From Arachidicoccus sp. BS20 (GTDB lineage: Bacteria > Bacteroidota > Bacteroidia > Chitinophagales > Chitinophagaceae): a stretch of 64,000 nucleotides of DNA. This document shows, in pieces, positions 1,663 through 41,789 of this stretch. A model generated the notes under the pieces. The model made no database searches. It saw nothing but the letters and a program-made list of their open reading frames with translations, and was not told where the DNA came from. Positions within the stretch are counted from its first letter, which is position 1. The number at the start of each line of letters is the position of its first letter. The position numbers and the translations under genes are program-made. The DNA lies in the NCBI RefSeq assembly GCF_001659705.1, contig NZ_CP015971.1, forward strand, positions 2,171,029-2,235,028. Reading direction: 5' to 3'.

Positions 1663-2541
1663 ATGGAAATTAGAACAGATTTATTTCTTGGCGACAGCAA
1701 AAAGATATTGAAACAACTTCCCGATAATTCTGTTGATTTAATCGTTACTTCTCCGCCTTATGCAGATCAACGCAAAGCAACTTATGGTGGTATTTCACAC
1801 AATAAATATGTTGAGTGGTTTTTACCAATAACAGAAGAGCTATTACGTGTTTTAAAACCAACAGGAACATTTATTTTAAATATAAAAGAAAAAGTTGTTG
1901 ATGGAGAACGTAGCACTTATGTGATGGAATTGATTATTGAAATGCGTAAACAAGGCTGGTTATGGACTGAGGAATTTATATGGCATAAGAAAAATTCTTA
2001 TCCGGGAAAATGGCCTAATCGTTTTCGTGACGCATGGGAAAGATTACTTCAATTCAACAAAGACAAAAAATTCAATATGTATCAAGAAGAAGTAATGGTT
2101 CCAATGGGCGATTGGGCAAAATCAAGATTAAAGAATTTAAGCGATACAGATAAAGTAAGAGATAATTCAAAAGTAGGAAGTGGCTTTGGTAAGAACATTT
2201 CAAATTGGCTAACAAGAGATAAAGCATATCCAACAAATGTTTTGCATTTAGCGACAGAATGTAACAACAAGAATCACAGTGCAGCATTTCCTGAAGAACT
2301 TCCTGAGTGGTTTATTAAATTATTTACAATGGAAAATGACGTGGTGCTTGACCCATTTATGGGCTCAGGAACGACGATTCATGTTGCTAACAGAATGAAA
2401 CGTAATTCAATTGGAATTGATATTGTGCCCGAATATTACAAAATGGTAAAAGAACAAGTAGAGCCTATTGAATTATATTTATTAGAGTCAAAAGTAAAAT
2501 ATGAAACCCCTAAATCTAAAGGACGTTACGCAGTACGTTGA
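1663..2541 (+). CDS. DNA methyltransferase, beta class (motif IV before motif I), probably N4-cytosine or N6-adenine
   Basis: SPPY motif (DLIVTSPPY) lies upstream of the AdoMet-binding motif DPFMGSGTT. The gene sits in a segment noticeably more AT-rich than its neighbours. Confidence 0.8.
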   Translation: MEIRTDLFLGDSKKILKQLPDNSVDLIVTSPPYADQRKATYGGISHNKYVEWFLPITEELLRVLKPTGTFILNIKEKVVDGERSTYVMELIIEMRKQGWLWTEEFIWHKKNSYPGKWPNRFRDAWERLLQFNKDKKFNMYQEEVMVPMGDWAKSRLKNLSDTDKVRDNSKVGSGFGKNISNWLTRDKAYPTNVLHLATECNNKNHSAAFPEELPEWFIKLFTMENDVVLDPFMGSGTTIHVANRMKRNSIGIDIVPEYYKMVKEQVEPIELYLLESKVKYETPKSKGRYAVR

Positions 2542-3238
2542 AGACAATATTGGAACTTTTCATCAAAAAAGAATTGCAGGTTTGAATGGTTTGAGATTAA
2601 AGAAAGTTCTTGCCAAAAAAAATCCTTATTTATTCAAAGCAAAATATATTTTAACTGCTCAAGATATTATTAAAAACTTGACAGACGCTTTTATTTCATC
2701 GCAAGAAGAAACAATCTTTGGAGATTGGTTAGAGGGACTTGCAATATTTATTAACAGTAAAGTTTATAATGGTCGTAAATCGGGCATTCAAGGAATTGAT
2801 TTGGAATTTGATAAAGACAACACCCGTTATATTATTACAATAAAATCTGGTCCAAATTGGGGCAATAGTTCTCAAATTGGAAAAATGAAAGCAGATTTCA
2901 AAACTGCACAAAGAACACTTCGTACAAGCAACTCAAAATTGAACATTGTTGCAGTCAATGGTTGTTGTTATGGCAGAGATAACAGACCCGATAAAGGCGA
3001 TTATTTCAAATATTGCGGACAACATTTTTGGGAATTTATCTCCGGGGACAAAGAATTATATCTAAAAATTATCGAGCCATTAGGACATAAAGCCAAAGAA
3101 AGAAATGATGAGTTCATTCAATCTTATTCTCAAATGATAAATGTATTTACAAAAGAATTTGCGGATACATTTTGTAATGAAAACGGTTCTATAAATTGGA
3201 ATAAACTTGTTTACTTTAATTCTTCAACAACTCGATAA
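2501..3238 (+). CDS. Putative type II restriction endonuclease, cognate to the upstream methyltransferase; family not identified
   Basis: Overlaps the methyltransferase 3' end by 41 nt on the same strand and is similarly AT-rich. No other recognisable domain; the call rests mainly on context. Confidence 0.5.
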   Translation: MKPLNLKDVTQYVEDNIGTFHQKRIAGLNGLRLKKVLAKKNPYLFKAKYILTAQDIIKNLTDAFISSQEETIFGDWLEGLAIFINSKVYNGRKSGIQGIDLEFDKDNTRYIITIKSGPNWGNSSQIGKMKADFKTAQRTLRTSNSKLNIVAVNGCCYGRDNRPDKGDYFKYCGQHFWEFISGDKELYLKIIEPLGHKAKERNDEFIQSYSQMINVFTKEFADTFCNENGSINWNKLVYFNSSTTR

Positions 3239-3281
3239 GATTAAATATTTACTAAGAGTAAAATTGTTCATAAAATCATTC

Positions 3282-4502
3282 ATGCAATACTGGAAAAAAC
3301 TTACACACAAGCAACAAGACGAACGAATATCCAAAGCGTTGGAACAAAATTTTGCCTTCGGCGAAAACGGAACGTTGGGAATACCCGCATCCAAGCTCGA
3401 CAGCAAAGTGTTCTACGACGATGCGCCTTTTTTAAAAGACGCGCCATTGCTGAGGACTTATGTGCAAAACCCGAATCATATTGGTTGCCACACGTTAGGC
3501 GAATCCGAGCCATTTTTCGCCGGAACGCAAGACATCGAGCGCGAAGTAATCGAACTGCTGAGTGTTGATATGATGCACGCGCAACCACATTCCTGCGACG
3601 GATATATTGCGGGCGGCGGCACGGAAGCCAACTTGCAAGCTGTATGGATTTATAGAAATTACTTTCAAAAAGAAATTGGCGCACCGGCTGAAAGCATTGC
3701 CCTGCTTGCATCCGAAGACACACATTATTCTGTGTCCAAAGCGTCAAACATTTTCGGGATTGAATTTTTTCAGGTAAAAGTTGATTTTAATTCACGAAAA
3801 ATTTTACAGGATAATCTGGAAGCAATCATTGAAAATGCGATTGAAAAAGGCAAAAAATATTTCATCATCATTGCGAATATGGCAACAACGATGTTTGGCA
3901 GCGTGGACGATATTTCCGTGTACGAAGAAGCAATGAAAAAATATGCTGTTCCATTTAAACTCCATGTGGACGGGGCTTTCGGCGGATTTATATATCCTCT
4001 CAGCGAGCCGGATAATTATTTGAATTTTGCAAATCCTGTTGTTTCTTCCATCACTTTGGATGCACACAAAATGTTGCAGGCTCCTTACGGCACAGGCATT
4101 TTTTTGGTAAGAAAAGGATTAATACAACACGTTTATACCGAAGAAGCTCAATATGTAAACGGCATGGACATAACACTAAGCGGAAGCCGTTCCGGTGCAA
4201 ACGCAATCGCCGTTTGGATGATTTTACAAACATATGGCTACCACGGTTGGCTGGAAAAAATCAATACGCTTTTGTTCCGTACTGATTGGTGTTGCAAGGC
4301 ATTGGATGAAAAGAAAATTCGTTATTACCGTCATCCAAAGATGAATATTATTACCATTCGTGCAGAAGATATTTCACGGGAAATTGCAGAGAAATATTAT
4401 TTAGTTCCCGATACACACAACGGAAATATGCGTTGGTATAAAATTGTTGTAATGGACCATGTAGATATTGACAGATTGCAACAGTTTGTGGAAGAATTGT
4501 AA
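3282..4502 (+). CDS. PLP-dependent group II amino-acid decarboxylase family protein
   Basis: PLP-lysine motif SITLDAHKM and Gly-rich GGGTEANL. Start set at the ATG at 3282 (MQYWKK) inside the longer ORF. Confidence 0.75.
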   Translation: MQYWKKLTHKQQDERISKALEQNFAFGENGTLGIPASKLDSKVFYDDAPFLKDAPLLRTYVQNPNHIGCHTLGESEPFFAGTQDIEREVIELLSVDMMHAQPHSCDGYIAGGGTEANLQAVWIYRNYFQKEIGAPAESIALLASEDTHYSVSKASNIFGIEFFQVKVDFNSRKILQDNLEAIIENAIEKGKKYFIIIANMATTMFGSVDDISVYEEAMKKYAVPFKLHVDGAFGGFIYPLSEPDNYLNFANPVVSSITLDAHKMLQAPYGTGIFLVRKGLIQHVYTEEAQYVNGMDITLSGSRSGANAIAVWMILQTYGYHGWLEKINTLLFRTDWCCKALDEKKIRYYRHPKMNIITIRAEDISREIAEKYYLVPDTHNGNMRWYKIVVMDHVDIDRLQQFVEEL

Positions 4503-4511
4503 AAGTTAAGG

Positions 4512-4590
4512 TTACCACTCAAGCGGCAATAACGTGCAAACGGTTTCATTTTTTTTCTTTGTGTCCCTTTGTCTCGTTGTGGTTTAGGTC
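4512..4590 (-). repeat. Second, inverted copy of the roughly 80-bp element (GGGACACAAAGAA ... TTGCACGTTATTGC)
   Basis: Its reverse complement aligns with 28626-28705. Confidence 0.5.
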
Positions 4591-4595
4591 AAGGT

Positions 4596-5105
4596 TCATT
4601 TCCTTTTAAACACCGGCACGGTGCTGCAAGGTTCGCCGTACATAATGCTTTGCGCGTAAGGCAATAACTGTTTTGTAATTTCCAAGTATGCAGAAGCGGA
4701 AACATCCAAATCGCCGCAACCTTTAATTACAACACGCTTTCCTTGAAATGTAGCAAAATCGATACTTTCCAAGTTTTTGATAAATAATGAATTGAGCAAT
4801 TCATCTTTTGCCCCTGCAATAAAATCCTTTGCAAAAGGTTGTAAATAAGTCGCGACTAACATGAATGCCCAGCGCGGAATTATGACATCGGAAGAGCAAA
4901 ATACGGCAACATATTTATCCTGATATTCTTGCCAATTTATTTCTTTTAATTTTTGCCGAAAATCTTTTTCTTTCAAAAGCATTTCCATGAAAAGCAAAGG
5001 TTTCAAATCAAAAGCAACAATTTCTTCCTTCGGATAATATTCTTCCAAATCAATTGTTACAATGCCGCTTGCCGCCACTTTATTAACGATTACATCTTCC
5101 ATCAC
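4596..5105 (-). CDS. Conserved hypothetical protein (DUF2480-like, Bacteroidota)
   Basis: 169-aa ORF with good coding appearance and no recognisable catalytic motifs. Confidence 0.5.
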   Translation of the reverse strand: MMEDVIVNKVAASGIVTIDLEEYYPKEEIVAFDLKPLLFMEMLLKEKDFRQKLKEINWQEYQDKYVAVFCSSDVIIPRWAFMLVATYLQPFAKDFIAGAKDELLNSLFIKNLESIDFATFQGKRVVIKGCGDLDVSASAYLEITKQLLPYAQSIMYGEPCSTVPVFKRK

Positions 5106-6977: not shown

Positions 6978-9137
6978 TTAATCTTCTTCCACTTTTACTC
7001 TACCCTTATTCTTAGCAATTACCTCTTCGGCAATATTGTTTGGAGCAGGAGCATAGTGGTCAAATTCCATGGTAGAAGCCGCACGTCCCGAAGATAGTGA
7101 ACGCAATTGCGTTACATAACCGAACATTTCGCTCAACGGAACTTTCGCCTTAATAACCTGTGCATTTCCACGAGAATCCATACCTTCCATCATACCTCGA
7201 CGACGGTTCAAGTCGCCGGTAACATCGCCCATGTATTGGTCAGGGGTAGTTACTTCCACTTTCATGATTGGCTCAAGCAATACAGGTTTTGCTTTTTTAC
7301 CTGCTTCACGGAAACCGGCTTTAGCACAAAGTTCAAAAGACATTGCATCTGAGTCCACCGCGTGGAAACTACCATCGAAAATGCGAATCTTCATGTTCTC
7401 AACAGGATAACCGGCTAAAACACCTGTATTCATCGCTGTTTCAAAGCCTTTCTGAATAGCGGGAATAAATTCGCGAGGAATAGCACCGCCCACAATATTG
7501 TTTACAAACTGGAAGCGTTTTCCTTCATTTTCTTTCAACCACTCTTCTTCGGCAGGTCCTATTTCAAACTGAACATCGGCGAATTTACCACGACCACCGG
7601 ATTGTTTTTTCAATACTTCACGGTGTTGGATTGTTGCCTGGAACGTTTCTTTATATGCAACCTGAGGAGCGCCTTGGTTTACTTCAACTTTGAACTCGCG
7701 TTTCATACGGTCAATGATGATTTCCAAGTGCAATTCGCCCATTCCGCGCAAAATTGTTTGTCCTGTATCTTCATCTGTATTTACACGAAGTGTAGGGTCT
7801 TCTTCCACCAATTTGGCGATAGCCATACCCATTTTATCAACGTCAGCCTGCGTTTTAGGTTCAACCGCGATAGCGATAACCGGTTCCGGAATAAACATAT
7901 TTTCCAAAACAATCGGATGCTTTTCGTCGCACAAAGTATCGCCGGTCTTGATTTCTTTAAAACCGACTGCCGCGCCAATATCGCCTGCTTCGATAAAATC
8001 TACCGGATTTTGTTTATTGGCAAACATTTTCATGATACGGCTGATACGCTCGTTCTTTCCGCTGCGTACGTTCAACACGTAAGAACCTGCATCCAGATGA
8101 CCTGAATATACGCGGAAAAATGCTAAACGACCAACAAAAGGGTCTGTCATAATTTTGAAAGCCAACGCTGCAAATGGTTCTTTAGCATCGGGTTTACGCA
8201 CAAGCACTTTTTCCGGATTATCCGGGTCTGTACCTTCGATAGCATCAATATCTACCGGAGAAGGCAGGTAACGGCACACAGCATCCAAAGCTGTTTGCAC
8301 TCCTTTATTTTTGAATGAAGAACCACACATCATCGGAACAATGCTTAAATCGATTGTTGCTTTGCGGATTGCTTCGTGAATTTCATCTTCGCTAATAGAG
8401 TTCGGGTCTTCAAAGAATTTCTCCATCAAAGTATCATCATATTCTGCAACAGCTTCAATTAATTGTGCACGCCATTCTTCAACTTCTTCTTTCATATCAT
8501 CAGGAATAGGTACATGAACGTAACTCATACCTTCAGTCGCATCGTCCCATATGATACCGATATTTTTAATCAAATCCACAACGCCCTTGAAGTTGTCTTC
8601 TGCGCCAATCGGCAATTGCAAAGGCACGGCTTTAGCGCCTAACATTTCTTTTACCTGATGAACAACGTTTAAAAAATCAGCGCCTTGACGGTCCATTTTG
8701 TTTACAAAACCAATACGTGGAACGCGGTAACGGTTTGCCTGACGCCAAACTGTTTCTGACTGAGGTTCAACGCCGTCAACAGCCGAGAACAATGCAATCA
8801 AGCCATCCAATACACGCATGGAACGCTCTACCTCAACGGTAAAATCCACGTGACCCGGAGTATCAATAATGTTGAAAGAATATTTTTTTGTATCTGCGAC
8901 CGGTTTTCCTTTATCATCGGTAGGAAAATTCCATTGACAGCTAACGGCTGCGGAAGTAATGGTAATACCTCTTTCTTTTTCCTGTTCCATCCAGTCGGTA
9001 GTAGCAGCGCCGTCGTGAACTTCGCCGATTCTGTGAATCATGCCTGTGTAACGAAGAATGCGCTCCGTGGTAGTAGTTTTACCGGCATCGATGTGCGCAG
9101 CAATACCAAAGTTGCGTTGTAATTTTAAGTCCGCCAT
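6978..9137 (-). CDS. fusA: Translation elongation factor G
   Basis: [16 protein letters not shown]1 motif, DTPGHVDF and full EF-G domain order. Start at MADLKL (9137). Confidence 0.9.
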
Positions 9138-9286
9138 AAAAAGTTTTGTTTTTAAAATCGTGAGAAAACGGGACGAATAAATACTATTCCCCAATTTTCA
9201 AGGCGCAAAGGTAATGAAATAGATTGAAACGCAATATTCGGATGAAATTATTTATAGAAAGGTAAGATTCGACAGTATTTTCAACA

Positions 9287-10691: not shown

Positions 10692-10744
10692 TTTTATCAA
10701 TATGCTAATGTGCCAATTTGCAAATATGCAAATGTGTATGGCAG

Positions 10745-11137
10745 TTAGAAAATAAAAAAACTTAGTAAATAACTTATCGGTAATTTCTTTTTGGAAGTGG
10801 ATACAATTTTCGCAATAATCTTACTTATTTCATCCACCTTGTTTATAAGATTTTTACATTCGGGATATGATTGTGCATAATCACATAGCATTAACCAATA
10901 TTGCGTTTCGTCCGTTTCTTTAGCTGCAATTTTTATTTTGTGTATAAAATCGGCTTTACTTTCAGGATTCTGCGCTTCCATTATATTAGCGCCTATGGAA
11001 GTGCCGGATTTTAATAATTGCCTCGCAATCACATACTTTTTATTTGCCTCTAATTTTTCACAATAATCAATCACGAGCAAAGCAAATTCTATGGAATGCT
11101 TAACTATCGGATTATTTTCAATCAATTCTTTTCGCAT
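10745..11137 (-). CDS. Four-helix-bundle protein (TIGR02436, the so-called 23S rRNA intervening-sequence protein family)
   Basis: 130 aa with a [11 protein letters not shown] core and predicted helical repeats. Paralogous to the ORF at 26000-26350. Confidence 0.75.
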
Positions 11138-11210
11138 ACAGTGATTATTGTACTATGAAACAGAAGAGCAATTTGCACATTTGCATATTAGCTAATTTGC
11201 AAATTTCAAA

Positions 11211-11693
11211 TTAATTCGGCTCTACCAGAAACAAAGGCTGGTCGTATTCTACCGGCGAAGCGTCGTCCACCAACACTTTTACAATTGTTCCGCTTACTTC
11301 GCTTTCTATTTCGTTGAAGAGTTTCATTGCTTCGATGATGCACACGGTTTGTCCCGCTTTTACTTCTTGTCCCACGTCTGCCAGCAAAGGCTTGTCGGGC
11401 GAAGCACGACGATAAAATGTACCAATCATTGGGCTTTTTATCGTTATAAAATTATCGTCTGATTTTGCCGGAGCAGAAGCGGTTGTTGGAGTTGCAGCCG
11501 GCGTTGATGGCAAACTTACTGTTGGCGCTGCCTGCGGCAATTGTTGCGGAAGCGGCTGCGGATTCACAAAAGTCTGAACGTACTCTTTCTTTTGTTTAAT
11601 GGTAATTTTGAAATCCTTTTCTTCGATAGACAATTCGCCGATGTTGCTCTTGTTAATTGTCTTTATCAATTCCTGAATTTGCTTATAATCCAT
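11211..11693 (-). CDS. accB: Biotin carboxyl carrier protein of acetyl-CoA carboxylase
   Basis: C-terminal biotinyl domain with EAMKLFNEIESE and a Pro/Ala-rich linker. Confidence 0.85.
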   Translation of the reverse strand: MDYKQIQELIKTINKSNIGELSIEEKDFKITIKQKKEYVQTFVNPQPLPQQLPQAAPTVSLPSTPAATPTTASAPAKSDDNFITIKSPMIGTFYRRASPDKPLLADVGQEVKAGQTVCIIEAMKLFNEIESEVSGTIVKVLVDDASPVEYDQPLFLVEPN

Positions 11694-13611: not shown

Positions 13612-13667
13612 ATTTATTGCCACAGATGCACGGATGAGTTTTTATCTGTGCATCTGTGGCAAACATT

Positions 13668-15277: not shown

Positions 15278-15452
15278 ACTTTATTTCATGCGAAAATAAC
15301 TTCGCTGTTCGTGATTTGCAATCGCGAACTGTTATCTGTGCATTTGTAATGCACAATATTTGCGAATTAAAAATTCGCCGATAGGACTTCGGAATTGCAA
15401 ATTCCGAAGAGCAGAAATCCGAAATGTATCTTTATTTTTTAAAACAAATATC

Positions 15453-17387: not shown

Positions 17388-17470
17388 TTTTTCACACAGA
17401 GTTTACGGAGCAATCGAGACATAAAGTAATAAAATTCTCTGCCTTATTTTCTTAGTATCCTCTGTGTGAA
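17388..17470. repeat. CACAGAG/CTCTGTG palindromic intergenic element, copy A, with perfect 11-bp terminal inverted repeats TTCACACAGAG/CTCTGTGTGAA
   Basis: Read directly from the YeiH/YkgJ convergent spacer. Confidence 0.6.
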
Positions 17471-17472
17471 AT

Positions 17473-24623: not shown

Positions 24624-24633
24624 GAATTTTCCC

Positions 24634-24724
24634 CGCAGATAACACAGATTTTTTCGCTGATATGCGCAGAAAAATCCGCGTTATCTGCGAGTTTTCAATC
24701 TGCGAAAATCTGCGCTGTCTGCGG
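24634..24724. repeat. Palindromic element with terminal inverted repeats CCCGCAGA/TCTGCGGG, internal CGCAGATAAC/GTTATCTGCG, and 4-5 iterated TCTGCG hexamers
   Basis: Read directly from the HAD/lolC convergent spacer. Confidence 0.5.
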
Positions 24725-24730
24725 GAAATT

Positions 24731-25957: not shown

Positions 25958-25969
25958 GCAGTAATTAAG

Positions 25970-25995
25970 AATTAGTAATTAAAAATTAATAATTG
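25970..25995. repeat. Left arm of a perfect 26-bp inverted repeat (AATTAGTAATTAAAAATTAATAATTG) flanking the four-helix-bundle gene
   Basis: Exact reverse-complement match to 26348-26373. Confidence 0.9.
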
Positions 25996-25999
25996 TGGG

Positions 26000-26350
26000 T
26001 TATCCTTTTGAAGAGTTAATAATTGAGGTAAGGATTTTTATAATTTCTTCACAATCATTGATAAAAGAATCTGCAATTTTTTCTTCTATAAATTTAGTTT
26101 CTTTCAGAATTCTCAACCAATATCGGGTTTCACGCGCTTCTCTGTATGCTATTTCGAGTTTGTGTATAAAATCTTTTCTTGAAGAACCGCCAACAGCTTC
26201 TTCAACATTAGCTCCGACAGAAGTTCCGCTTTTTAATAATTGAACACATAATTCTCTTTCAACTTTGTTTTTTCGCAAATGCAAGAAGAGCTTGGTTATT
26301 CTCAATGCAAATAGAAAACTTTTATCCAATATAATATTATCGTCCTTCAA
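26000..26350 (-). CDS. Four-helix-bundle protein (TIGR02436, 23S rRNA intervening-sequence protein family), second copy
   Basis: 116 aa with GTSVGANVEEA core and ETRYWL motif. Paralogous to 10745-11137. Confidence 0.75.
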   Translation of the reverse strand: MKDDNIILDKSFLFALRITKLFLHLRKNKVERELCVQLLKSGTSVGANVEEAVGGSSRKDFIHKLEIAYREARETRYWLRILKETKFIEEKIADSFINDCEEIIKILTSIINSSKG

Positions 26351-26373
26351 TTATTAATTTTTAATTACTAATT
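26348..26373. repeat. Right arm of the perfect 26-bp inverted repeat (CAATTATTAATTTTTAATTACTAATT)
   Basis: Exact reverse complement of 25970-25995. Confidence 0.9.
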
Positions 26374-26379
26374 ATTAAT

Positions 26380-26742
26380 TCACTTATTCGACTCCTCATT
26401 AATTTTTTTAAACAATTCTTCCATATGAAAAACGTGTTCCAGCGTATCATCGGCATAATAATGAATCACGGGAATGCGGCGCAACTGGTTTTTCAATTTA
26501 TGCGACAATTCTTTTTTTATTTCCCAGGCTTTTTGTTCAATTGATTTTAATGCCGCAGCATTGTCTTGCACCTGAAAGAAACTCAGGTAAATACGCACTT
26601 CCAGCAAATCGGGCGTAACCTGCACATCGCTGATGGAAACCATGCCGCCGCCAATCATGTTCAAACCAAGATGACGAAAGATTTGGTTAATCTCTTCTTT
26701 AATCACGTTGGCAACCTGCCGCTGTCTTTTTCCCTGTTCCAT
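26380..26742 (-). CDS. rbfA: Ribosome-binding factor A
   Basis: RQVANVIKEEINQI motif and KH-like fold, 120 aa. Confidence 0.8.
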   Translation of the reverse strand: MEQGKRQRQVANVIKEEINQIFRHLGLNMIGGGMVSISDVQVTPDLLEVRIYLSFFQVQDNAAALKSIEQKAWEIKKELSHKLKNQLRRIPVIHYYADDTLEHVFHMEELFKKINEESNK

Positions 26743-26804
26743 AATCTTTGCGTTTTGTTGGCTGTAAAATTAGTTACTTTTGCCGTTCTATTCTAATAAG
26801 AATT

Positions 26805-28613
26805 ATGAAGAAATTTCAACGCATATTCACGTATCTCGGGCATTACAAATCCAAGCTGTTCAGCTATACATTATTTACGGTTTTAGGAACATTGTTCGGC
26901 ATTTTATCAATCGGAATGTTGTCGCCGTTTCTTACCTTGATTATCGGCGATGAAAAAAATTCTTCTGCTAATTTGTTGCAGTCAAAATCAAGCGGAAAAT
27001 TTATCCTTAATTTTCTGAACAGCGAAGTACAGCAACACGGCAAACTCGCTGCTATTGCTGCGGTTTGTATAATTATTATTGTATCCACCTTGCTGAAAAA
27101 TATTTTTATTTATTTATCGGCTGTTATTTCTGCGCCTGTCCGAAGTTCCATTATCAAAAGGCTGCGCGATGAAATGTATGTAAAAGCTCTGCAACTCCCC
27201 ATCGGATTTTTTACCGAGCAGAAAAAAGGCGATGTAATGTCGCGTATGACAAATGATATTAATGAAGTGGACAGTTCAATTGTAAGCACGCTGGAAGGCT
27301 TAATCAAAGATCCGTTCACAATAGTCGGTTATTTGATTGCGATGATTTTGATTAGCCCGGCATTGTCCATTGGTTTATTAATTCTTTTGCCATTGACAGG
27401 TTTTGTTATCGGTCGTGTAAGTCGTTTATTAAAGAAACAATCCAAAGCCATGAGCGAGCGACAAAGTGTTGCGCTCTCTATTTTGGACGAAACGCTTACG
27501 GGAATAAGAGTTGTAAAGGCTTTTCTGGCGGAAAAAATGATGCACAAAAAATTTGACGCCGTGAATGAAGATATGTTTGTGCTGCGCAATAAAATGTCGT
27601 ATCGCCGCAATCTGGCTTCGCCTTTGACGGAAGTATTGGGCGTAACAGTGCTTGCGGCAATTTTGTATTTCGGCGGCATGTTGGTGGTAAAATATCAATT
27701 GATGAAAGGCGGCGATTTGCTGGCATATATCGGCATGTTTGCTTTCATTATTAATCCTGCGAAAACTTTGTCCACATCATTTTTCAACATTCAGCGCGGA
27801 AGCTCTGCGCTCACGCGAATTGAAGATTTTCTGGCTACGCCCGAAGTGATTGAAGACGGAGGAACGAATGAATTAAGTTTTGAAAGAGAAATACAGTTTA
27901 AAAATGTATTTTTTAGTTATCCAGACGGGACTGCCGTTTTAAAGAATATTAACCTTACTATTCCTAAAGGCAAAACCGTGGCGCTTGTAGGCAGCAGCGG
28001 CGCAGGAAAAAGTACGATTGCCGATTTGGTTCCGCGCTTTCACGACGTGAGTTCGGGCGAGTTGCTGATTGATGGAATCAACGTTAAAAATTATTCGCTC
28101 AAATCTTTGCGCGAGCATATCAGCATTGTAACACAGGAACCGATTTTGTTTAATGATTCTATTGCAAGCAATATTGCTTTGGGAAAAAATGATGCAAGCG
28201 AACAGCAAATTGAAGACGCGGCAAAGGTTGCCAATGCGTTTAATTTTATCCAACAGAAAGAAGAAAAATTTGACACCAACATTGGCGACAGAGGCAATAA
28301 ATTAAGCGGCGGCGAAAAACAACGTGTAACCATTGCGCGCGCCGTTTTAAAAAATCCACCGATACTGATTTTGGATGAAGCCACTTCTTCGCTCGACACG
28401 GAAAGTGAAAGATTGGTACAGGATGCGATTGATAAAATGATGGAAAACCGCACTTCATTAGTAATTGCCCACAGACTCTCAACTGTGCGAAATGCTGATG
28501 AAATCATTGTTTTGGATAAAGGCGAAATTGCCGAACGCGGCTCCCACGATGAATTGCTGAAAATAGAAAATGGTATTTACAGTAGATTGGTTAGAATGCA
28601 GGAAGTGAAATAG
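26805..28613 (+). CDS. ABC transporter, fused permease/ATPase (MsbA-like lipid/multidrug exporter)
   Basis: Six N-terminal TM segments, Walker A GSSGAGKST, signature LSGGEKQR and Walker B ILILDEATS. Confidence 0.85.
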   Translation: MKKFQRIFTYLGHYKSKLFSYTLFTVLGTLFGILSIGMLSPFLTLIIGDEKNSSANLLQSKSSGKFILNFLNSEVQQHGKLAAIAAVCIIIIVSTLLKNIFIYLSAVISAPVRSSIIKRLRDEMYVKALQLPIGFFTEQKKGDVMSRMTNDINEVDSSIVSTLEGLIKDPFTIVGYLIAMILISPALSIGLLILLPLTGFVIGRVSRLLKKQSKAMSERQSVALSILDETLTGIRVVKAFLAEKMMHKKFDAVNEDMFVLRNKMSYRRNLASPLTEVLGVTVLAAILYFGGMLVVKYQLMKGGDLLAYIGMFAFIINPAKTLSTSFFNIQRGSSALTRIEDFLATPEVIEDGGTNELSFEREIQFKNVFFSYPDGTAVLKNINLTIPKGKTVALVGSSGAGKSTIADLVPRFHDVSSGELLIDGINVKNYSLKSLREHISIVTQEPILFNDSIASNIALGKNDASEQQIEDAAKVANAFNFIQQKEEKFDTNIGDRGNKLSGGEKQRVTIARAVLKNPPILILDEATSSLDTESERLVQDAIDKMMENRTSLVIAHRLSTVRNADEIIVLDKGEIAERGSHDELLKIENGIYSRLVRMQEVK

Positions 28614-28625
28614 ACGGTTTTATTT

Positions 28626-28705
28626 GAACCACAAAGGCACAACGGCACGAAGGGACACAAAGAATAATTCGGAACACGCTTGCACGTCATTGCGAGGAGC
28701 GAGGT
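28626..28705 (+). repeat. Roughly 80-bp intergenic element sharing blocks ACCACAA..GGGACACAAAGAA..TTGCACGT(C/T)ATTGC with an inverted copy at 4512-4590
   Basis: Aligned by eye against the reverse complement of 4512-4590. Confidence 0.5.
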
Positions 28706-28836
28706 ACGAGCGACGTGGCAATCTCAATAAAAATATGCGTTCCTTTACTCCAAAAACAATTGAAACAATAAGACAATTAAACAATCCAACACATTCGTAT
28801 AATTTCTCTAAATTCGTGTAATCAAAAAATAATTTT

Positions 28837-29061
28837 ATGGAAAACATTCATCCGCAATATACCTTCGACAACGCAGGAAATCCTGTGGGTGTTTTTTTGC
28901 CGATAGACGATTGGAATGCGATTACGGAAGAGTTGCATTTGGACTTGCCTGAATGGCAAAAGAGGTTGCTTGATGAACGCGTGGAAGCGTACAGAAAAAA
29001 TCCAGAAGCGATGATTGATTGGGATAGCTTTGTGGCAGAAGAACTAAGTGATGATGAGTGA
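28837..29061 (+). CDS. Putative addiction-module antitoxin (TIGR02574-like)
   Basis: 74 aa, acidic C-terminus. Its 3' end overlaps the downstream RelE/ParE-like gene. Confidence 0.6.
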   Translation: MENIHPQYTFDNAGNPVGVFLPIDDWNAITEELHLDLPEWQKRLLDERVEAYRKNPEAMIDWDSFVAEELSDDE

Positions 29062-29356
29062 GTATAAACTGATTGTTGCTCCTGAAGTTCGCTATGATAT
29101 ACGCGAAGCCAAGCTTTGGTATAAAGATAAAAGCCCGACGCTGCCAAGACGTTTTGCAACAGAAGTGAGAACTACAATTGAGCAAGTAAAATTGCGACCG
29201 ACAACGCACGCAATCCGTTACAACAACATACGCATTGCCAACTTACCGATATTTCCTTACGCCATTCATTATACTGTTGAAGAAAATATTGTTGTTGTAC
29301 TCGCCGTTTTTCATGCTGCGTTAAATCCTGAAAAATGGTTGAACAGAAATAAATAA
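29048..29356 (+). CDS. RelE/ParE-family type II toxin
   Basis: About 100 aa with RelE/ParE-like secondary-structure order (LVVLAVFHAALNPE C-terminal beta region). Overlaps the antitoxin by 14 nt. Confidence 0.65.
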   Translation: MMMSEYKLIVAPEVRYDIREAKLWYKDKSPTLPRRFATEVRTTIEQVKLRPTTHAIRYNNIRIANLPIFPYAIHYTVEENIVVVLAVFHAALNPEKWLNRNK

Positions 29357-29363
29357 ACTATTT

Positions 29364-29735
29364 ATGAAAAAAACTTTGCTCACTATCGGTTTACTCATTA
29401 TTTCCAACACATTCATGACGTTTGCGTGGTACGGGCATTTGAAATTCAGCAAATATGAATGGTTTAACAAACTGAATCTTGCAGGCGTCATTCTTATTAG
29501 TTGGGGAATTGCATTATTTGAATATTCATTTCAAGTGCCTGCCAATAGAATCGGCTTTAACGAAAACGGCGGACCGTTTAATCTTTGGCAATTAAAAGTA
29601 ATTCAGGAAGCCGTAACGCTCACGGTATTTACCATTTTCACTGTTGTATTTTTTAAGGAAGAAACTTTTAAAATGAACCATTTGATTGGCTTCGGATTTT
29701 TGGTGTTGGCGGTGTATTTTATTTTTAAGAAATAA
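29364..29735 (+). CDS. DMT-superfamily small membrane protein (DUF486)
   Basis: Four predicted TM helices, 123 aa. Confidence 0.6.
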   Translation: MKKTLLTIGLLIISNTFMTFAWYGHLKFSKYEWFNKLNLAGVILISWGIALFEYSFQVPANRIGFNENGGPFNLWQLKVIQEAVTLTVFTIFTVVFFKEETFKMNHLIGFGFLVLAVYFIFKK

Positions 29736-29738
29736 TAT

Positions 29739-30863
29739 TTATTCCCAAGAAAATTTATCCAATTTTCTCAACTGCGGTTCTCCACCACCTTGATAAAAAG
29801 AATTTGGATATTCTTCAATCCATTTTTCATTATTCTTTTCATCAAGATAATAATTCTCCCAATTTAATTGTTTGATTAGTGTTAGCTGTTTTAGCTTTTC
29901 ATAAACTAAATCACCCTTTATAATAGTAATAATCTTATTTAATATTTCCCTCGCATCTTCCTCATCCTTTGCCAGCGCAGCTTTCAGTGCATCCAAGCCG
30001 TTAAATTTTTCTTCACTGCGCAACCATGCAAGCAATTCAACTTTGATATTCTTTCCGTAAATATCCTGTGCGAAATCAAAAATATTTACTTCAATGGAAA
30101 TCCTTGTACTTTCTTCAATCGTCGGGCGCAAACTAATGCCTAACATTCCGCCGTAAGCCGCCTCATTCACAATCACTTTCACGGCATACACGCCAATCGC
30201 GGGAATTAATTTATCCGCATCTTCCACCTGAATATTCGCAGTAGGATAGCCGATGGTTCTGCCAATTTGATTGCCTTTCACAACCGTTCCTTGCAAGAAA
30301 TAAGGATAACCTAAAAAATTAGTTACTGTCGCAATATCGCCATGCAGCAGGGCTTCGCGTATTTTTGTAGAACTGATGGTTACTTCGTTCAACAATTTTT
30401 CTGGAATTTCTTTTACCCGGAAATTCAACAGTTTGCCATAGCTTTCCAACGTATGATAATCGCCCGTTCTGCCTTTGCCGAAACGATGGTCATAGCCAAT
30501 GATAATCGTATGCGGATGAATTTTTTTTACCAGAAAATCCTGCACATATTCTTCCGCCGTTTGCGAAGCAAAGGCTTCGTTAAATGGAACTACGATAACA
30601 TTTTCAACGTTGTGTTTTTTGAGCAAACTAAGTTTTTCGTTTAGCGTATTGAGCAAGCGCAGCGGCGTTTCATTTTGTTGTACAATCTTTCTCGGATGCG
30701 GATGAAACGTAACAATAACGGTCTCTCCGGCGATTTGCTTTGCTTCATCTTTCAGTTGATGGATAATTTTTTGATGTCCCAAATGCACGCCATCGAACGT
30801 GCCGATTGTAACAACTGCATTGTTGAATAAAGGGAGATTTTCCAAGTCGTAAAATACACGCAT
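29739..30863 (-). CDS. ribF: Bifunctional riboflavin kinase / FMN adenylyltransferase with a roughly 60-aa C-terminal extension
   Basis: VVTIGTFDGVHLGHQ nucleotidyltransferase motif, plus riboflavin-kinase domain. At 374 aa it is longer than typical RibF (about 310 aa). Confidence 0.85.
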   Translation of the reverse strand: MRVFYDLENLPLFNNAVVTIGTFDGVHLGHQKIIHQLKDEAKQIAGETVIVTFHPHPRKIVQQNETPLRLLNTLNEKLSLLKKHNVENVIVVPFNEAFASQTAEEYVQDFLVKKIHPHTIIIGYDHRFGKGRTGDYHTLESYGKLLNFRVKEIPEKLLNEVTISSTKIREALLHGDIATVTNFLGYPYFLQGTVVKGNQIGRTIGYPTANIQVEDADKLIPAIGVYAVKVIVNEAAYGGMLGISLRPTIEESTRISIEVNIFDFAQDIYGKNIKVELLAWLRSEEKFNGLDALKAALAKDEEDAREILNKIITIIKGDLVYEKLKQLTLIKQLNWENYYLDEKNNEKWIEEYPNSFYQGGGEPQLRKLDKFSWE

Positions 30864-30883: not shown

Positions 30884-30975
30884 TTTCACACAGAGATATG
30901 ATTTCTCACAGAGAATACAAAGTAATTGAGACACCGAGCAACAAAATTCCGTGCCTCATTTTCTCTGTGCATTCT
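30884..30975. repeat. CACAGAG/CTCTGTG palindromic intergenic element, copy B (TTCACACAGAG ... TTTTCTCTGTG)
   Basis: Shares its end motifs and internal blocks (AAAGTAAT, AAAATTC, GCCT(T/C)ATTTTCT) with copy A at 17388-17470. Confidence 0.55.
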
Positions 30976-31045
30976 TTGAGAAATACAAACAAAAAACCGA
31001 TAAACTTAGTTGCCTATCGGTTTGAATATTTTTTATTGTTATCGG

Positions 31046-41597: not shown

Positions 41598-41697
41598 AAA
41601 AATTGATTTATTTTTTCACGCAACGATGCAACGTTTAATTCGATAAACTTATTATCATTTACATTGAGCCAAATCCATTCTTTGTGTAGTTCCGTGT

Positions 41698-41775
41698 AAC
41701 CTCTGTGTTTCTCTGTGATACGGCTATTACACAGAGTGCTACAAAGATTTCACAGAGTTTCGCAGAGATTTATTC
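41698..41775. repeat. CACAGAG-type element, copy C (CTCTGTG x2, CACAGAG x2, CGCAGAG at about 10-bp phasing) inside the response regulator to histidine kinase spacer
   Basis: Read directly from the sequence. Looser match to copies A and B. Confidence 0.45.
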
Positions 41776-41789
41776 GCGTGAAACTAAAC

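What the first reader, a model, noticed from the sequence alone, without database searches (positions are those of the whole stretch)
4512..4590. Roughly 80-bp intergenic element present in two inverted copies (the other at 28626-28705)
The reverse complement of 4512-4590 reads AAACCACAACGAGACAAAGGGACACAAAGAA...GAAACCGTTTGCACGTTATTGCCGCTTGAG. At 28626 the plus strand reads GAACCACAAAGGCACAACGGCACGAAGGGACACAAAGAA...GGAACACGCTTGCACGTCATTGCGAGGAGCGAG.

The shared blocks are a degenerate (G/A)ACACAA(A/C)G heptad run ending in GGGACACAAAGAA, then an approximately 20-nt spacer, then TTGCACGT(C/T)ATTGC. Both copies sit in 3' intergenic regions. This could be a small structured RNA, a protein-binding site array or a miniature repeat element.
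Basis: seen in the sequence. Interest (0 to 1): 0.55.

Follow-up and report, generated by a model that had tools for sequence, protein, structure and literature searches.

The report
Decayed composite intergenic repeat, two copies
The two ~80-100 nt sequences are real, diverged copies of a non-coding repeat built from a short 8-nt tandem array plus one copy of a small hairpin repeat that occurs across bacterial phyla; they look like leftovers of mobile DNA, not an RNA gene.

Summary
4526-4581(-) and 28638-28693(+) are the longest inverted repeat in the window (56 nt, 79%). Their local alignment score is 52, against 27±2 for shuffles. The window is Arachidicoccus ginsenosidimutans (Bacteroidota).

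The element has two parts:
- An array of degenerate 8-nt (not 7-nt) repeats, AAMGGCAC, opening with AACCACAA. Nearly the same sequence forms the inverted arms around a small GxxExxY gene cassette in a related Arachidicoccus.
- After a 15-nt spacer, one copy of a ~38-nt hairpin repeat, GTCATTGCGAG-[variable stem-loop]-CGYGGCAATC. Copy B matches my covariance model of it (47 bits, E 5e-9). Copy A is eroded and does not match.

This hairpin repeat occurs in hundreds of metagenomic viral contigs and in plasmids of alpha- and gammaproteobacteria and cyanobacteria. Its inner stem covaries strongly. It shows no strand preference relative to genes and has no Rfam match.

Both copies start 11-13 nt after the stop codon of a conserved gene and border strain-specific accessory genes. 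Both are absent from the same sites in relatives, and the composite was not found in either genome or metagenome scan. Folding is no better than shuffles.

Best reading: relics of hairpin-bounded mobile DNA. A structured RNA is not supported.

The parts
4555..4584 (-). Copy A, 8-nt periodic array: AACCACAACGAGACAAAGGGACACAAAGAA. It starts 11 nt after the TGA of the DUF2480 gene.
4540..4554 (-). Copy A, 15-nt spacer (AAAAAATGAAACCGT), same length as in copy B, 8 of 15 identical.
4510..4539 (-). Copy A, TTGCAC followed by an eroded hairpin unit (GTTATTGC-CGCTTGA-GTGGTAACC). Only a 7-bp G-U-containing hairpin is left, and it abuts the stop codon of the convergent PLP-decarboxylase gene (stop at 4500-4502).
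   Evidence: Not detected by model R1 at E<=10.
28627..28664 (+). Copy B, 8-nt periodic array: AACCACAAAGGCACAACGGCACGAAGGGACACAAAGAA. It starts 13 nt after the TAG of the ABC transporter gene.
   Evidence: period 8; 96% over 24 nt to the cassette arm in L008
28665..28685 (+). Copy B, 15-nt spacer (TAATTCGGAACACGC) plus TTGCAC, shared with copy A.
28686..28723 (+). Copy B, full copy of the cross-phylum hairpin unit: GTCATTGCGAGG-AGCGAGGTACGAGCGACGT-GGCAATC. It has a 7-nt insertion in the apical loop compared with the commonest form, AGCGAAGCGACGT.
   Evidence: Model R1 hit at 28683-28726, 47.2 bits, E 5.2e-9. Family properties.
28754..28785 (+). Second, unrelated 8-nt periodic array (AAACAATT type) in the same intergenic region, upstream of the ParD/ParE-like toxin-antitoxin pair.
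4596..5105 (-). Context: conserved DUF2480 gene, whose 3' end copy A follows.
26748..28613 (+). Context: conserved MsbA-like ABC transporter gene, whose 3' end copy B follows.
28837..29735 (+). Context: accessory insert next to copy B (ParD-like antitoxin, ParE-like toxin, DMT_6 protein). It is absent between the ABC transporter and ribF in A. soli.
1663..4502 (+). Context: accessory genes next to copy A (EcoO109I-type methylase and endonuclease, PLP-dependent decarboxylase). Relatives carry different genes after DUF2480.

Best explanation
The two loci are diverged paralogous copies of one composite, non-coding intergenic repeat. I read them as relics of hairpin-bounded mobile DNA, not as an RNA gene.

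The 5' module is a short array of degenerate 8-nt repeats opening with AACCACAA. In this genus the same kind of low-complexity arm, in nearly the same sequence, occurs as inverted pairs that bracket small mobile gene cassettes (four-helix-bundle and GxxExxY proteins).

The 3' module is one copy of a ~38-nt hairpin-forming dispersed repeat, GTCATTGCGAG-[variable stem-loop]-CGYGGCAATC. It is found across bacterial phyla and is gained and lost between related sequences. It is intact in copy B and eroded in copy A.

The whole composite (array, 15-nt spacer, TTGCAC, unit) was copied as a block. Each copy now sits at the seam between the stop codon of a conserved gene and strain-specific accessory genes.

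What is shown:
- The two copies are homologous.
- Copy B belongs to the hairpin family.
- The arm resembles a cassette arm in a relative.
- The arm-bounded cassettes are mobile.
- The element is absent from relatives.
- There is no RNA-like signal.

What is inferred:
- The copies are 'solo ends' or scars left by insertion of such mobile DNA.
- They are now neutral, apart from any incidental hairpin at the 3' end of the upstream mRNA.
- The unit spreads as a DNA-level hairpin (REP/REPIN-like).
For: 1. The homology is real.

2. Block 2 of the finding is the 5' half of a widespread unit.
- The 17-mer GTCATTGCGAGGAGCGA occurs in 109 viral-contig stretches.
- There are 170 distinct inserts, and 166 of them are self-complementary.
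- Inner-stem covariation gives 159 double-change cells, against 62 +/- 6 in shuffles (0 of 500 reach it), and all slid controls are low.

3. Copy B scores 47.2 bits, E 5e-9, against the unit model. Copy A is not found.

4. The unit is cross-phylum: plasmids of Methylosinus, Methylocystis, Novosphingobium, Legionella, Halomonas, Calothrix and Aulosira.

5. The unit has no strand preference between co-directional genes: 56 sense, 51 antisense.

6. A filled versus empty site is seen between related contigs L071 and L109.

7. Units sit next to 7-8-nt periodic arrays more often than control positions do: 1.6-2.6% of flanks against 0.6% at the stricter score threshold. L069 and L022 are examples.

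8. Copy B's array matches the inverted arms of a GxxExxY cassette in a related Arachidicoccus: 96% over 24 nt.

9. The four-helix-bundle cassette, including its heptad arms, is about 83% identical in DNA at different chromosomal slots in different genomes. The arms therefore travel with mobile cassettes.

10. Neither copy is present at the orthologous site in relatives, and both border accessory genes.

11. The composite was not found in 185,579 species genomes or in JGI metagenomes; all hits were chance matches.
Against: - No partner arm, small ORF, terminal inverted repeat or target-site duplication could be identified around either copy. 'Solo end of a cassette' is therefore an inference.
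- Only two copies could be examined, because the rest of the source genome was not retrievable.
- Both copies have the same orientation and nearly the same distance (11 and 13 nt) from an upstream stop codon. This could instead reflect a selected 3'-end function.
- The array-to-arm similarity involves low-complexity sequence and rests on one related locus (L008).
- No transposase or recombinase is linked to the element in the window.
Confidence: 0.5

Rival explanations
1. A selected 3'-UTR element. The terminal hairpin, with or without the A/C-rich array, would terminate or stabilise the upstream mRNAs of DUF2480 and the ABC transporter, as REP sequences do in enterobacteria.
For: - Both copies are co-oriented with the upstream gene and start 11 and 13 nt after its stop codon.
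- Copy A's residual hairpin, TTGCCGCTTGAGTGGTAA followed by CCTTAACTTT, is flagged as terminator-like and sits between convergent genes.
- Copy B carries a hairpin unit.
Against: - Relatives lack the element at the same gene ends.
- Fold energies are no better than shuffles as RNA or DNA.
- The hairpins of A and B differ, and copy B has no T-run and is not flagged.
- Canonical hairpin-plus-T-run terminators exist elsewhere in the window.
- The unit family shows no sense/antisense preference.
- Two of two co-oriented copies is not significant.
Confidence: 0.2
2. A recombination or insertion hot spot (att-like or target sequence) at which accessory genes are integrated downstream of core genes.
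For: Both copies lie exactly at the seam between conserved genes and accessory DNA: a restriction-modification system plus decarboxylase for A, and a toxin-antitoxin pair plus DMT_6 for B. These intergenic slots are variably occupied in relatives: PIN toxin-antitoxin, PQ-loop, four-helix-bundle cassette.
Against: - There is no second copy or partial copy at the far end of either accessory block.
- No integrase or transposase is nearby.
- The empty sites in relatives contain nothing resembling the element.
Confidence: 0.15
3. Inverted repeats that mediated, or can mediate, inversion of the 24-kb segment between them.
For: The copies are inverted and 24 kb apart, with the array ends facing inward.
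Against: - GC skew does not flip at either boundary.
- Identity is only 79% over 56 nt, which is poor for homologous recombination.
- Gene order on either side of each boundary cannot be compared, because synteny with A. soli is broken in many places.
Confidence: 0.05
4. An independent small RNA gene, or an array of binding sites for an RNA- or DNA-binding protein.
For: An 8-nt periodic motif with a conserved core (AAMGGCAC) is repeated 3-4 times in both copies.
Against: - No Rfam hit.
- No promoter-like site at B, and only a generic one near A on the other strand.
- No structure signal.
- Not conserved in relatives.
- Other arrays in the same genome have unrelated cores (AATTAAT, ATTTGCA, CACAGAT), so no single binder is implied.
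Confidence: 0.05

Closest known systems
REP sequences / REPINs mobilised by RAYT (Y1 HUH) transposases (Bertels & Rainey 2011, PMC3116915)
   Same: - A short (~30-40 nt) imperfect palindrome in intergenic DNA, often just after stop codons.
- Occurs singly, in tandem clusters and as inverted doublets that form long hairpins, as in the Methylosinus and Calothrix plasmids.
- Presence/absence polymorphism between related sequences.
- A related Chitinophagaceae locus carries a Y1_Tnp gene flanked by GTAG-type REP hairpins inside the same kind of intergenic slot.
   Different: - The 5' motif is GTCA, not GTAG.
- The sequence is nearly identical across phyla, whereas REPs are normally lineage-specific and co-evolve with their RAYT.
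- No RAYT is present in the window.
- Only one intact copy was found in 64 kb and none in 134 kb of other fetched loci, about 100 kb of it from relatives. Classic REP families are much denser.
Tandem heptanucleotide repeats of cyanobacteria and Bacteroidetes (STRR; long simple sequence repeats; TAACTGA repeats, MacGregor 2015, PMC4679880)
   Same: Short-period (7-8 nt) direct repeats confined to intergenic DNA in Bacteroidetes and cyanobacteria. They are absent from the same intergenic region in close relatives and associated with gene rearrangement or accessory genes.
   Different: Here the period is 8. The array has only 3-4 degenerate copies (Tandem Repeats Finder score 35). It is joined to a hairpin unit and duplicated as a composite.
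Small dispersed repeats (SDR) of Nostoc (Elhai et al. 2008, Genome Res 18:1484; cited from memory and from reference 43 of PMC3116915; full text not available here)
   Same: Very small (<40 nt) hairpin-capable dispersed repeats that insert into intergenic DNA. From memory, they are often found in the context of tandem heptamer repeats.
   Different: I could not compare sequences. SDRs were described as restricted to heterocystous cyanobacteria, whereas this unit spans several phyla.
Intervening-sequence-like cassettes encoding four-helix-bundle (23S rRNA IVS protein, PF05635/TIGR02436) or GxxExxY (TIGR04256) proteins
   Same: The 8-nt array of the finding opens with the same AACCACAA(C/A)G sequence as the inverted arms bracketing a GxxExxY gene in a related Arachidicoccus. 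The window itself holds two four-helix-bundle genes bracketed by 7-8-nt periodic inverted arms.
   Different: Copies A and B have no inverted partner arm and no enclosed ORF.

Membership tests
Any Rfam 15 RNA family | Covariance-model score at or above the gathering threshold | tested here: not met
   No hits in the whole window at gathering thresholds. Nothing meaningful at E<=10 around either copy. Canonical units from other contigs also give no hit.
GTCATTGCGAG hairpin unit (family defined here, model R1) | Full-length match to the covariance model: 5' GTCATTGCGAG, 3' CGYGGCAATC, enclosed stem-loop | tested here: met
   Copy B: 28683-28726, 47.2 bits, E 5.2e-9, model positions 1-40 of 40.
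GTCATTGCGAG hairpin unit (family defined here, model R1) | The same, for copy A | tested here: not met
   No hit at E<=10 with filters off. Only GTTATTGC and GTGGTAACC remain.
REP / REPIN | Conserved 5' GTAG tetranucleotide next to an imperfect palindrome | tested here: not met
   The motif is GTCA in all 111 aligned units and in copy B.
REP / REPIN | RAYT (Y1_Tnp) gene in the same genome, flanked by the repeat | not testable with these tools
   tblastn finds no Y1_Tnp in the 64-kb window. The rest of the genome could not be fetched.
REP / REPIN | Many copies per genome, commonly as inverted doublets | tested here: inconclusive
   One intact and one eroded copy in 64 kb, with no doublet. Doublets occur in other taxa.
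MITE | Terminal inverted repeats and a target-site duplication | tested here: not met
   The ends AACCACAA... and ...GGCAATCTC are not complementary, and no duplication is seen at the boundaries.
Tandem heptanucleotide repeats (STRR / LSSR) | Head-to-tail copies of a 7-nt unit | tested here: not met
   Period 8, 3.5 copies, 75% matches, score 35 in copy B. Copy A is not reported.
Intrinsic terminator | G+C-rich stem followed by a T-run | tested here: inconclusive
   Copy A has a weak match: 7 pairs, 3 of them G-C, tail CCTTAACTTT. Copy B has none.
Arm of a hairpin-bounded small-gene cassette | Inverted partner arm within about 0.5 kb, enclosing a small ORF | tested here: not met
   No complementary array near either copy. 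The 65-aa ORF at 28624-28821 has no family match.
Arm of a hairpin-bounded small-gene cassette | Sequence similarity to known cassette arms | tested here: met
   Copy B's array is 96% identical over 24 nt to the L008 arm. AACCACAA is invariant in all five aligned arms and arrays.
Integron attC site | Complementary R'' (RYYYAAC) and R' (GTTRRRY) core sites | tested here: not met
   Neither copy and none of the units carry these cores, by direct reading.

The most novel reading that the evidence does not exclude
The GTCATTGCGAG-[stem-loop]-CGYGGCAATC unit is an undescribed, horizontally spreading 'nano' mobile hairpin. It would act at the DNA level and be shared by Bacteroidota, Cyanobacteria, Alpha- and Gammaproteobacteria and, on my reading of the contigs rather than any test, gut Firmicutes-like contigs. 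The low-complexity 7-8-nt arms would be the termini of a separate, also undescribed class of small-gene cassettes (four-helix-bundle, GxxExxY) that insert between genes of conserved operons. The finding would then be a hybrid relic of both systems.
Probability: 0.3. Interest if true: 0.7.

Novelty: new member of a known kind. Interest (0 to 1): 0.35.

Why it matters
The pair itself matters little. It is eroding, lineage-specific intergenic DNA with no sign of an RNA function.

Its value is as a pointer to two things.

First, a ~38-nt hairpin repeat is conserved almost to the base across phyla. Its apical stem covaries strongly and it shows no strand preference relative to genes. It is absent from Rfam, and I found no paper that quotes its sequence.

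Second, in Chitinophagaceae small genes travel together with low-complexity inverted arms and land between genes of conserved operons (accB|accC, rbfA|ftsX, parE|parC, and the two metH genes).

If either has a dedicated mobilising enzyme, these would be very small, tractable models of DNA-hairpin mobility. They would also explain many spurious 'hypothetical proteins' called across such repeats.

Tried and rejected
- Structured RNA: rejected. Rfam at gathering thresholds and at E<=10 finds nothing, and fold z-scores are about 0 as RNA and DNA.
- Counting genome-wide copies: not possible. Proteins of the source genome are listed but its contig is not retrievable.
- Scan of 185,579 species genomes with GGGACACAAAGAAN{5,35}TTGCACGT: 5 hits, all chance matches inside coding sequence.
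- Scan of JGI metagenomes with a looser pattern: 2 chance hits.
- Conservation at orthologous sites: none in an 85% relative, A. soli, or 77% and 82% relatives.
- Coding potential: the 65-aa and 50-aa ORFs over the elements have no family match and are not shared between the copies.
- Inversion of the intervening 24 kb: no GC-skew flip.
- The octad arm in viral contigs: no hit.
- Four-helix-bundle relatives in viral contigs: none confirmed.
- Y1 transposase in the window or in unit-bearing loci: none.
- Literature search by sequence for the unit: only primer coincidences.
- Elhai 2008 (SDRs): could not be opened.
- Cultured and annotated phages: only 3 unannotated faecal contigs carry the unit.
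- Integron attC and MITE models: rejected on their defining motifs.

Full report
**Source and setting**

The DUF2480 protein and the ABC transporter encoded next to the two copies are 100% identical to proteins of Arachidicoccus ginsenosidimutans (Chitinophagaceae, Bacteroidota; a 3.49-Mb contig). That contig itself could not be fetched. Everything about copy number is therefore limited to this 64-kb window and to relatives.

**1. The observation**

Reading both places confirms the quoted sequences.
- The repeat finder ranks the pair as the longest inverted repeat of the window: 4526-4581 vs 28638-28693, 56 nt, 79%.
- A local alignment of the 93-nt intergenic region A against the rest of the window scores 52. 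One hundred dinucleotide shuffles give 27.3 ± 2.4, maximum 37.
- The two exact blocks occur only at these two places and are 15 nt apart in both copies.

Three corrections apply.
- The array period is 8 (AAMGGCAC), not 7.
- Homology starts at AACCACAA: position 4584 in A and 28627 in B.
- Homology continues past TTGCACGTYATTGC to GTGG(C/T)AA(T/C)C, after an insert of 7 nt in A and 21 nt in B.

The arrays begin 11 nt (A) and 13 nt (B) after the stop codons of DUF2480 (4596-5105, -) and an MsbA-like ABC transporter (26748-28613, +), on the strand of those genes.

**2. It is not a recognisable RNA**

- Rfam gives nothing at gathering thresholds for the window and nothing meaningful at E≤10 around either copy.
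- Minimum free energies of both copies, on both strands, as RNA or DNA, match those of shuffles, with z between -0.5 and +1.0.
- A simple scan flags only copy A's residual hairpin as weakly terminator-like. It flags nothing at copy B.

**3. The 3' block is half of a widespread hairpin repeat**

TTGCAC|GTCATTGC continues in copy B as GTCATTGCGAGGAGCGAGGTACGAGCGACGTGGCAATC.

Abundance:
- The 17-mer GTCATTGCGAGGAGCGA is found in 109 stretches of metagenomic viral contigs, nearly all continuing as ...AGCGACG(T/A/C)(G/A)GCAATC.
- Across the fetched loci I counted 331 units in 205 loci.

Structure:
- There are 170 distinct inserts. Of these, 166 contain a hairpin of at least 2 bp, with 70 distinct stems of at least 3 bp.
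- Three-base loops dominate (101 of 166), GAA is the commonest loop, and the closing pair is C-G in 110 of 166.
- On an alignment of 111 distinct units, the inner stem has 159 cells with changes on both sides. Shuffles give 62 ± 6, and none of 500 reaches the observed value. All slid controls are low.
- The outer stem (ATTGC/GCAAT) is invariant by construction of the search, so it carries no information.

Membership:
- A covariance model built from this alignment (R1) finds exactly one significant hit in the window with filters off: 28683-28726(+), 47.2 bits, E 5e-9, full length.
- Copy A is not detected. It keeps only GTTATTGC...GTGGTAACC.
- R1 finds nothing in 134 kb of the other non-viral fetched loci, about 100 kb of which comes from Arachidicoccus relatives.

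Distribution and behaviour:
- The unit occurs in plasmids of Methylosinus, Methylocystis, Novosphingobium, Legionella, Halomonas, Calothrix and Aulosira, with no annotation under it.
- In those plasmids it often forms REPIN-like inverted doublets between genes.
- Between co-directional genes it lies 56 times sense and 51 times antisense. This argues against a strand-specific RNA.
- Related contigs L071 and L109 differ by presence or absence of one unit in a short intergenic region. Others differ by tandem or partial duplications.
- Canonical units match no Rfam family.
- A full-text search for the sequence returned only unrelated primers.
- The prevalence of c-GNA-g triloops fits the known extra-stable DNA mini-hairpins (established knowledge; review listed). 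This is a hint that the structure matters in DNA, not proof.

**4. The 5' block resembles the arms of mobile small-gene cassettes**

The window contains two four-helix-bundle protein genes (TIGR02436; 10745-11137 and 26000-26350, both -). Each exactly fills the gap between two genes of a conserved operon: accB|accC, and rbfA|lolE-ftsX-like. Each is bracketed by inverted arms made of 7-8-nt periodic sequence: the ATTTGCA type at 10699-10736/11170-11212 and the AATTAAT type at 25960-25995/26348-26380.

The second cassette, arms included, is about 83% identical in DNA to cassettes sitting between parE and parC in other Bacteroidota. So the arms travel with the gene.

In a related Arachidicoccus contig (L008), a GxxExxY gene (TIGR04256) lies between the two metH genes. 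It is bracketed by 35-nt inverted arms, GAACCACAACGACGCGCCGACACAACGAC / its complement GAACCACAACGGCACAACGGCACAACGAC.
- Copy B's array, GAACCACAAAGGCACAACGGCACG, is 96% identical over 24 nt to that arm.
- AACCACAA is invariant in copy A, copy B and all three L008 arms.

Periodic arrays next to GTCATTGCGAG units recur elsewhere, for example in L069, L022, L016, L081 and L195. At the stricter score threshold, 1.6-2.6% of unit flanks carry one, against 0.6% of control positions. The architecture of the finding is therefore not unique, although this particular composite is.

**5. Genomic position**

In A. soli, the ABC transporter's stop codon is 21 nt from the stop of the convergent ribF. In an 82% relative, a PQ-loop gene lies there instead. 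In the window, about 1.1 kb is inserted at that point: copy B, a second periodic array, a ParD/ParE-like pair and a DMT_6 gene.

Downstream of DUF2480, relatives carry FBPase or other genes and no element. In the window, copy A abuts a PLP-dependent decarboxylase and an EcoO109I-type restriction-modification pair.

Both copies thus sit at a seam between a core gene and accessory DNA.

The composite was not found in 185,579 species genomes or in JGI metagenomes. The 5 and 2 hits are chance matches. GC skew does not flip at either copy, so there is no sign of a recent inversion of the intervening 24 kb.

**6. Interpretation**

The shared 15-nt spacer and the TTGCAC preceding the unit show that array plus unit were copied as one block. 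These positions are variable in units elsewhere, so two independent insertions are unlikely.

The copies differ at 21% of positions, and one has lost the unit's core. That is what unconstrained DNA would do.

The most economical reading is a pair of relics of hairpin-bounded mobile DNA: a cassette-type arm carrying an inserted or attached copy of the cross-phylum hairpin unit. They would have been left at sites where accessory genes entered just downstream of core genes.

I put this at about 0.5, for these reasons:
- No partner arm, ORF, terminal repeat or target duplication was found.
- Only two copies could be seen.
- The similar placement after stop codons could instead reflect a selected 3'-end role (about 0.2).

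An insertion hot spot (0.15), inversion repeats (0.05) and an sRNA or binding array (0.05) are less likely.

**7. Comparison with known elements**

The unit behaves like REP/REPIN elements: small intergenic palindromes, singlets, clusters and inverted doublets, and presence/absence polymorphism (PMC3116915). It lacks the GTAG motif, is far more conserved across phyla than REPs are, and has no RAYT in view.

A related Chitinophagaceae locus (L233) does carry a Y1_Tnp gene, flanked by GTAG-type hairpins, inside the parE|parC slot next to a four-helix-bundle cassette. So such enzymes exist in this family.

The array resembles the intergenic heptamer repeats described in cyanobacteria and Bacteroidetes (PMC4679880), but it is octameric and degenerate. 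The small dispersed repeats of Nostoc (Elhai 2008) may be the nearest precedent for the unit. I could not read that paper here.

**8. Verdict**

This is a real repeat of an ordinary kind, and it is decaying. It is not a structured RNA.

What deserves follow-up is not the pair but the two systems it points to: the GTCATTGCGAG hairpin unit, and the arm-bounded four-helix-bundle and GxxExxY cassettes.

Noticed in passing
window 10699-11212 and 25958-26380: Two four-helix-bundle (TIGR02436/PF05635) genes, each bracketed by 30-35-nt inverted arms of 7-8-nt periodic sequence. They exactly fill the gaps accB|accC and rbfA|lolE-ftsX. The second cassette, with its arms, is about 83% identical in DNA to cassettes in the parE|parC gap of other Bacteroidota, so it is a mobile unit.
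   Followed up: partly
window 17390-17472 and 30901-30984 (both +): A second two-copy ~85-nt intergenic repeat, as strong as the finding (local score 53). It is bounded by 12-nt inverted ends, TTTCACACAGAG / CTCTGTGTGAAA, with a shared core GAGACA..AAAATTC..TGCCT.ATTTTCT.
   Followed up: partly
window 13612-13667, 24624-24730, 41670-41789, 15330-15359: Low-complexity hairpins built from CACAGAT / CGCAGAT / CACAGAG heptads, mostly between convergent genes. They are a further kind of periodic intergenic sequence in this genome.
   Followed up: no
window 29739-30863 (-): The ribF product (FAD synthetase plus riboflavin kinase) carries a C-terminal match to the Imm27 immunity-protein domain (residues 319-369, E 4.5e-8). 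The A. soli ribF is shorter (310 aa).
   Followed up: no
window 1663-3238: An EcoO109I-type type II restriction-modification pair (N6_N4 methylase plus RE_EcoO109I), followed by a PLP-dependent decarboxylase. This is accessory DNA next to copy A.
   Followed up: no
L008 6766-7300: A GxxExxY (TIGR04256) gene bracketed by 35-nt AACCACAACG-type inverted arms, plus an extra inner arm. It is inserted between the two genes that together make up methionine synthase (S-methyl_trans | pterin/B12 domains).
   Followed up: partly
L233 1636-3710: A 2-kb insert in the parE|parC gap (four-helix-bundle cassette, DUF1835/DUF3658 gene, Y1_Tnp gene) is itself bounded by a 27-nt inverted repeat, GGGCTTTGTTGCGTCGCACACTTGTAC / its complement. 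The Y1_Tnp gene is flanked by GTAG-type hairpins (GCTCCGTAGGAGCGA...) typical of REP/RAYT systems.
   Followed up: no
L022 (rc) about 8908-9240; L142 2670-2860; L071 (rc) about 860-970: GTCATTGCGAG units occur in tandem with 12-24-nt pyrimidine-rich linkers. They mix with a second unit type (GTCATTCCCGC..GCGGGAATCC) and with truncated 24-nt half-units repeated three times (GTCATTGCGAGGCATCTCCCCTCT).
   Followed up: no
L221 4215-4825: In an 82% relative, the rbfA|ftsX gap that holds the four-helix-bundle cassette in the window holds a PIN-domain toxin-antitoxin pair instead. The same intergenic slot is filled by different small selfish genes in different species.
   Followed up: no
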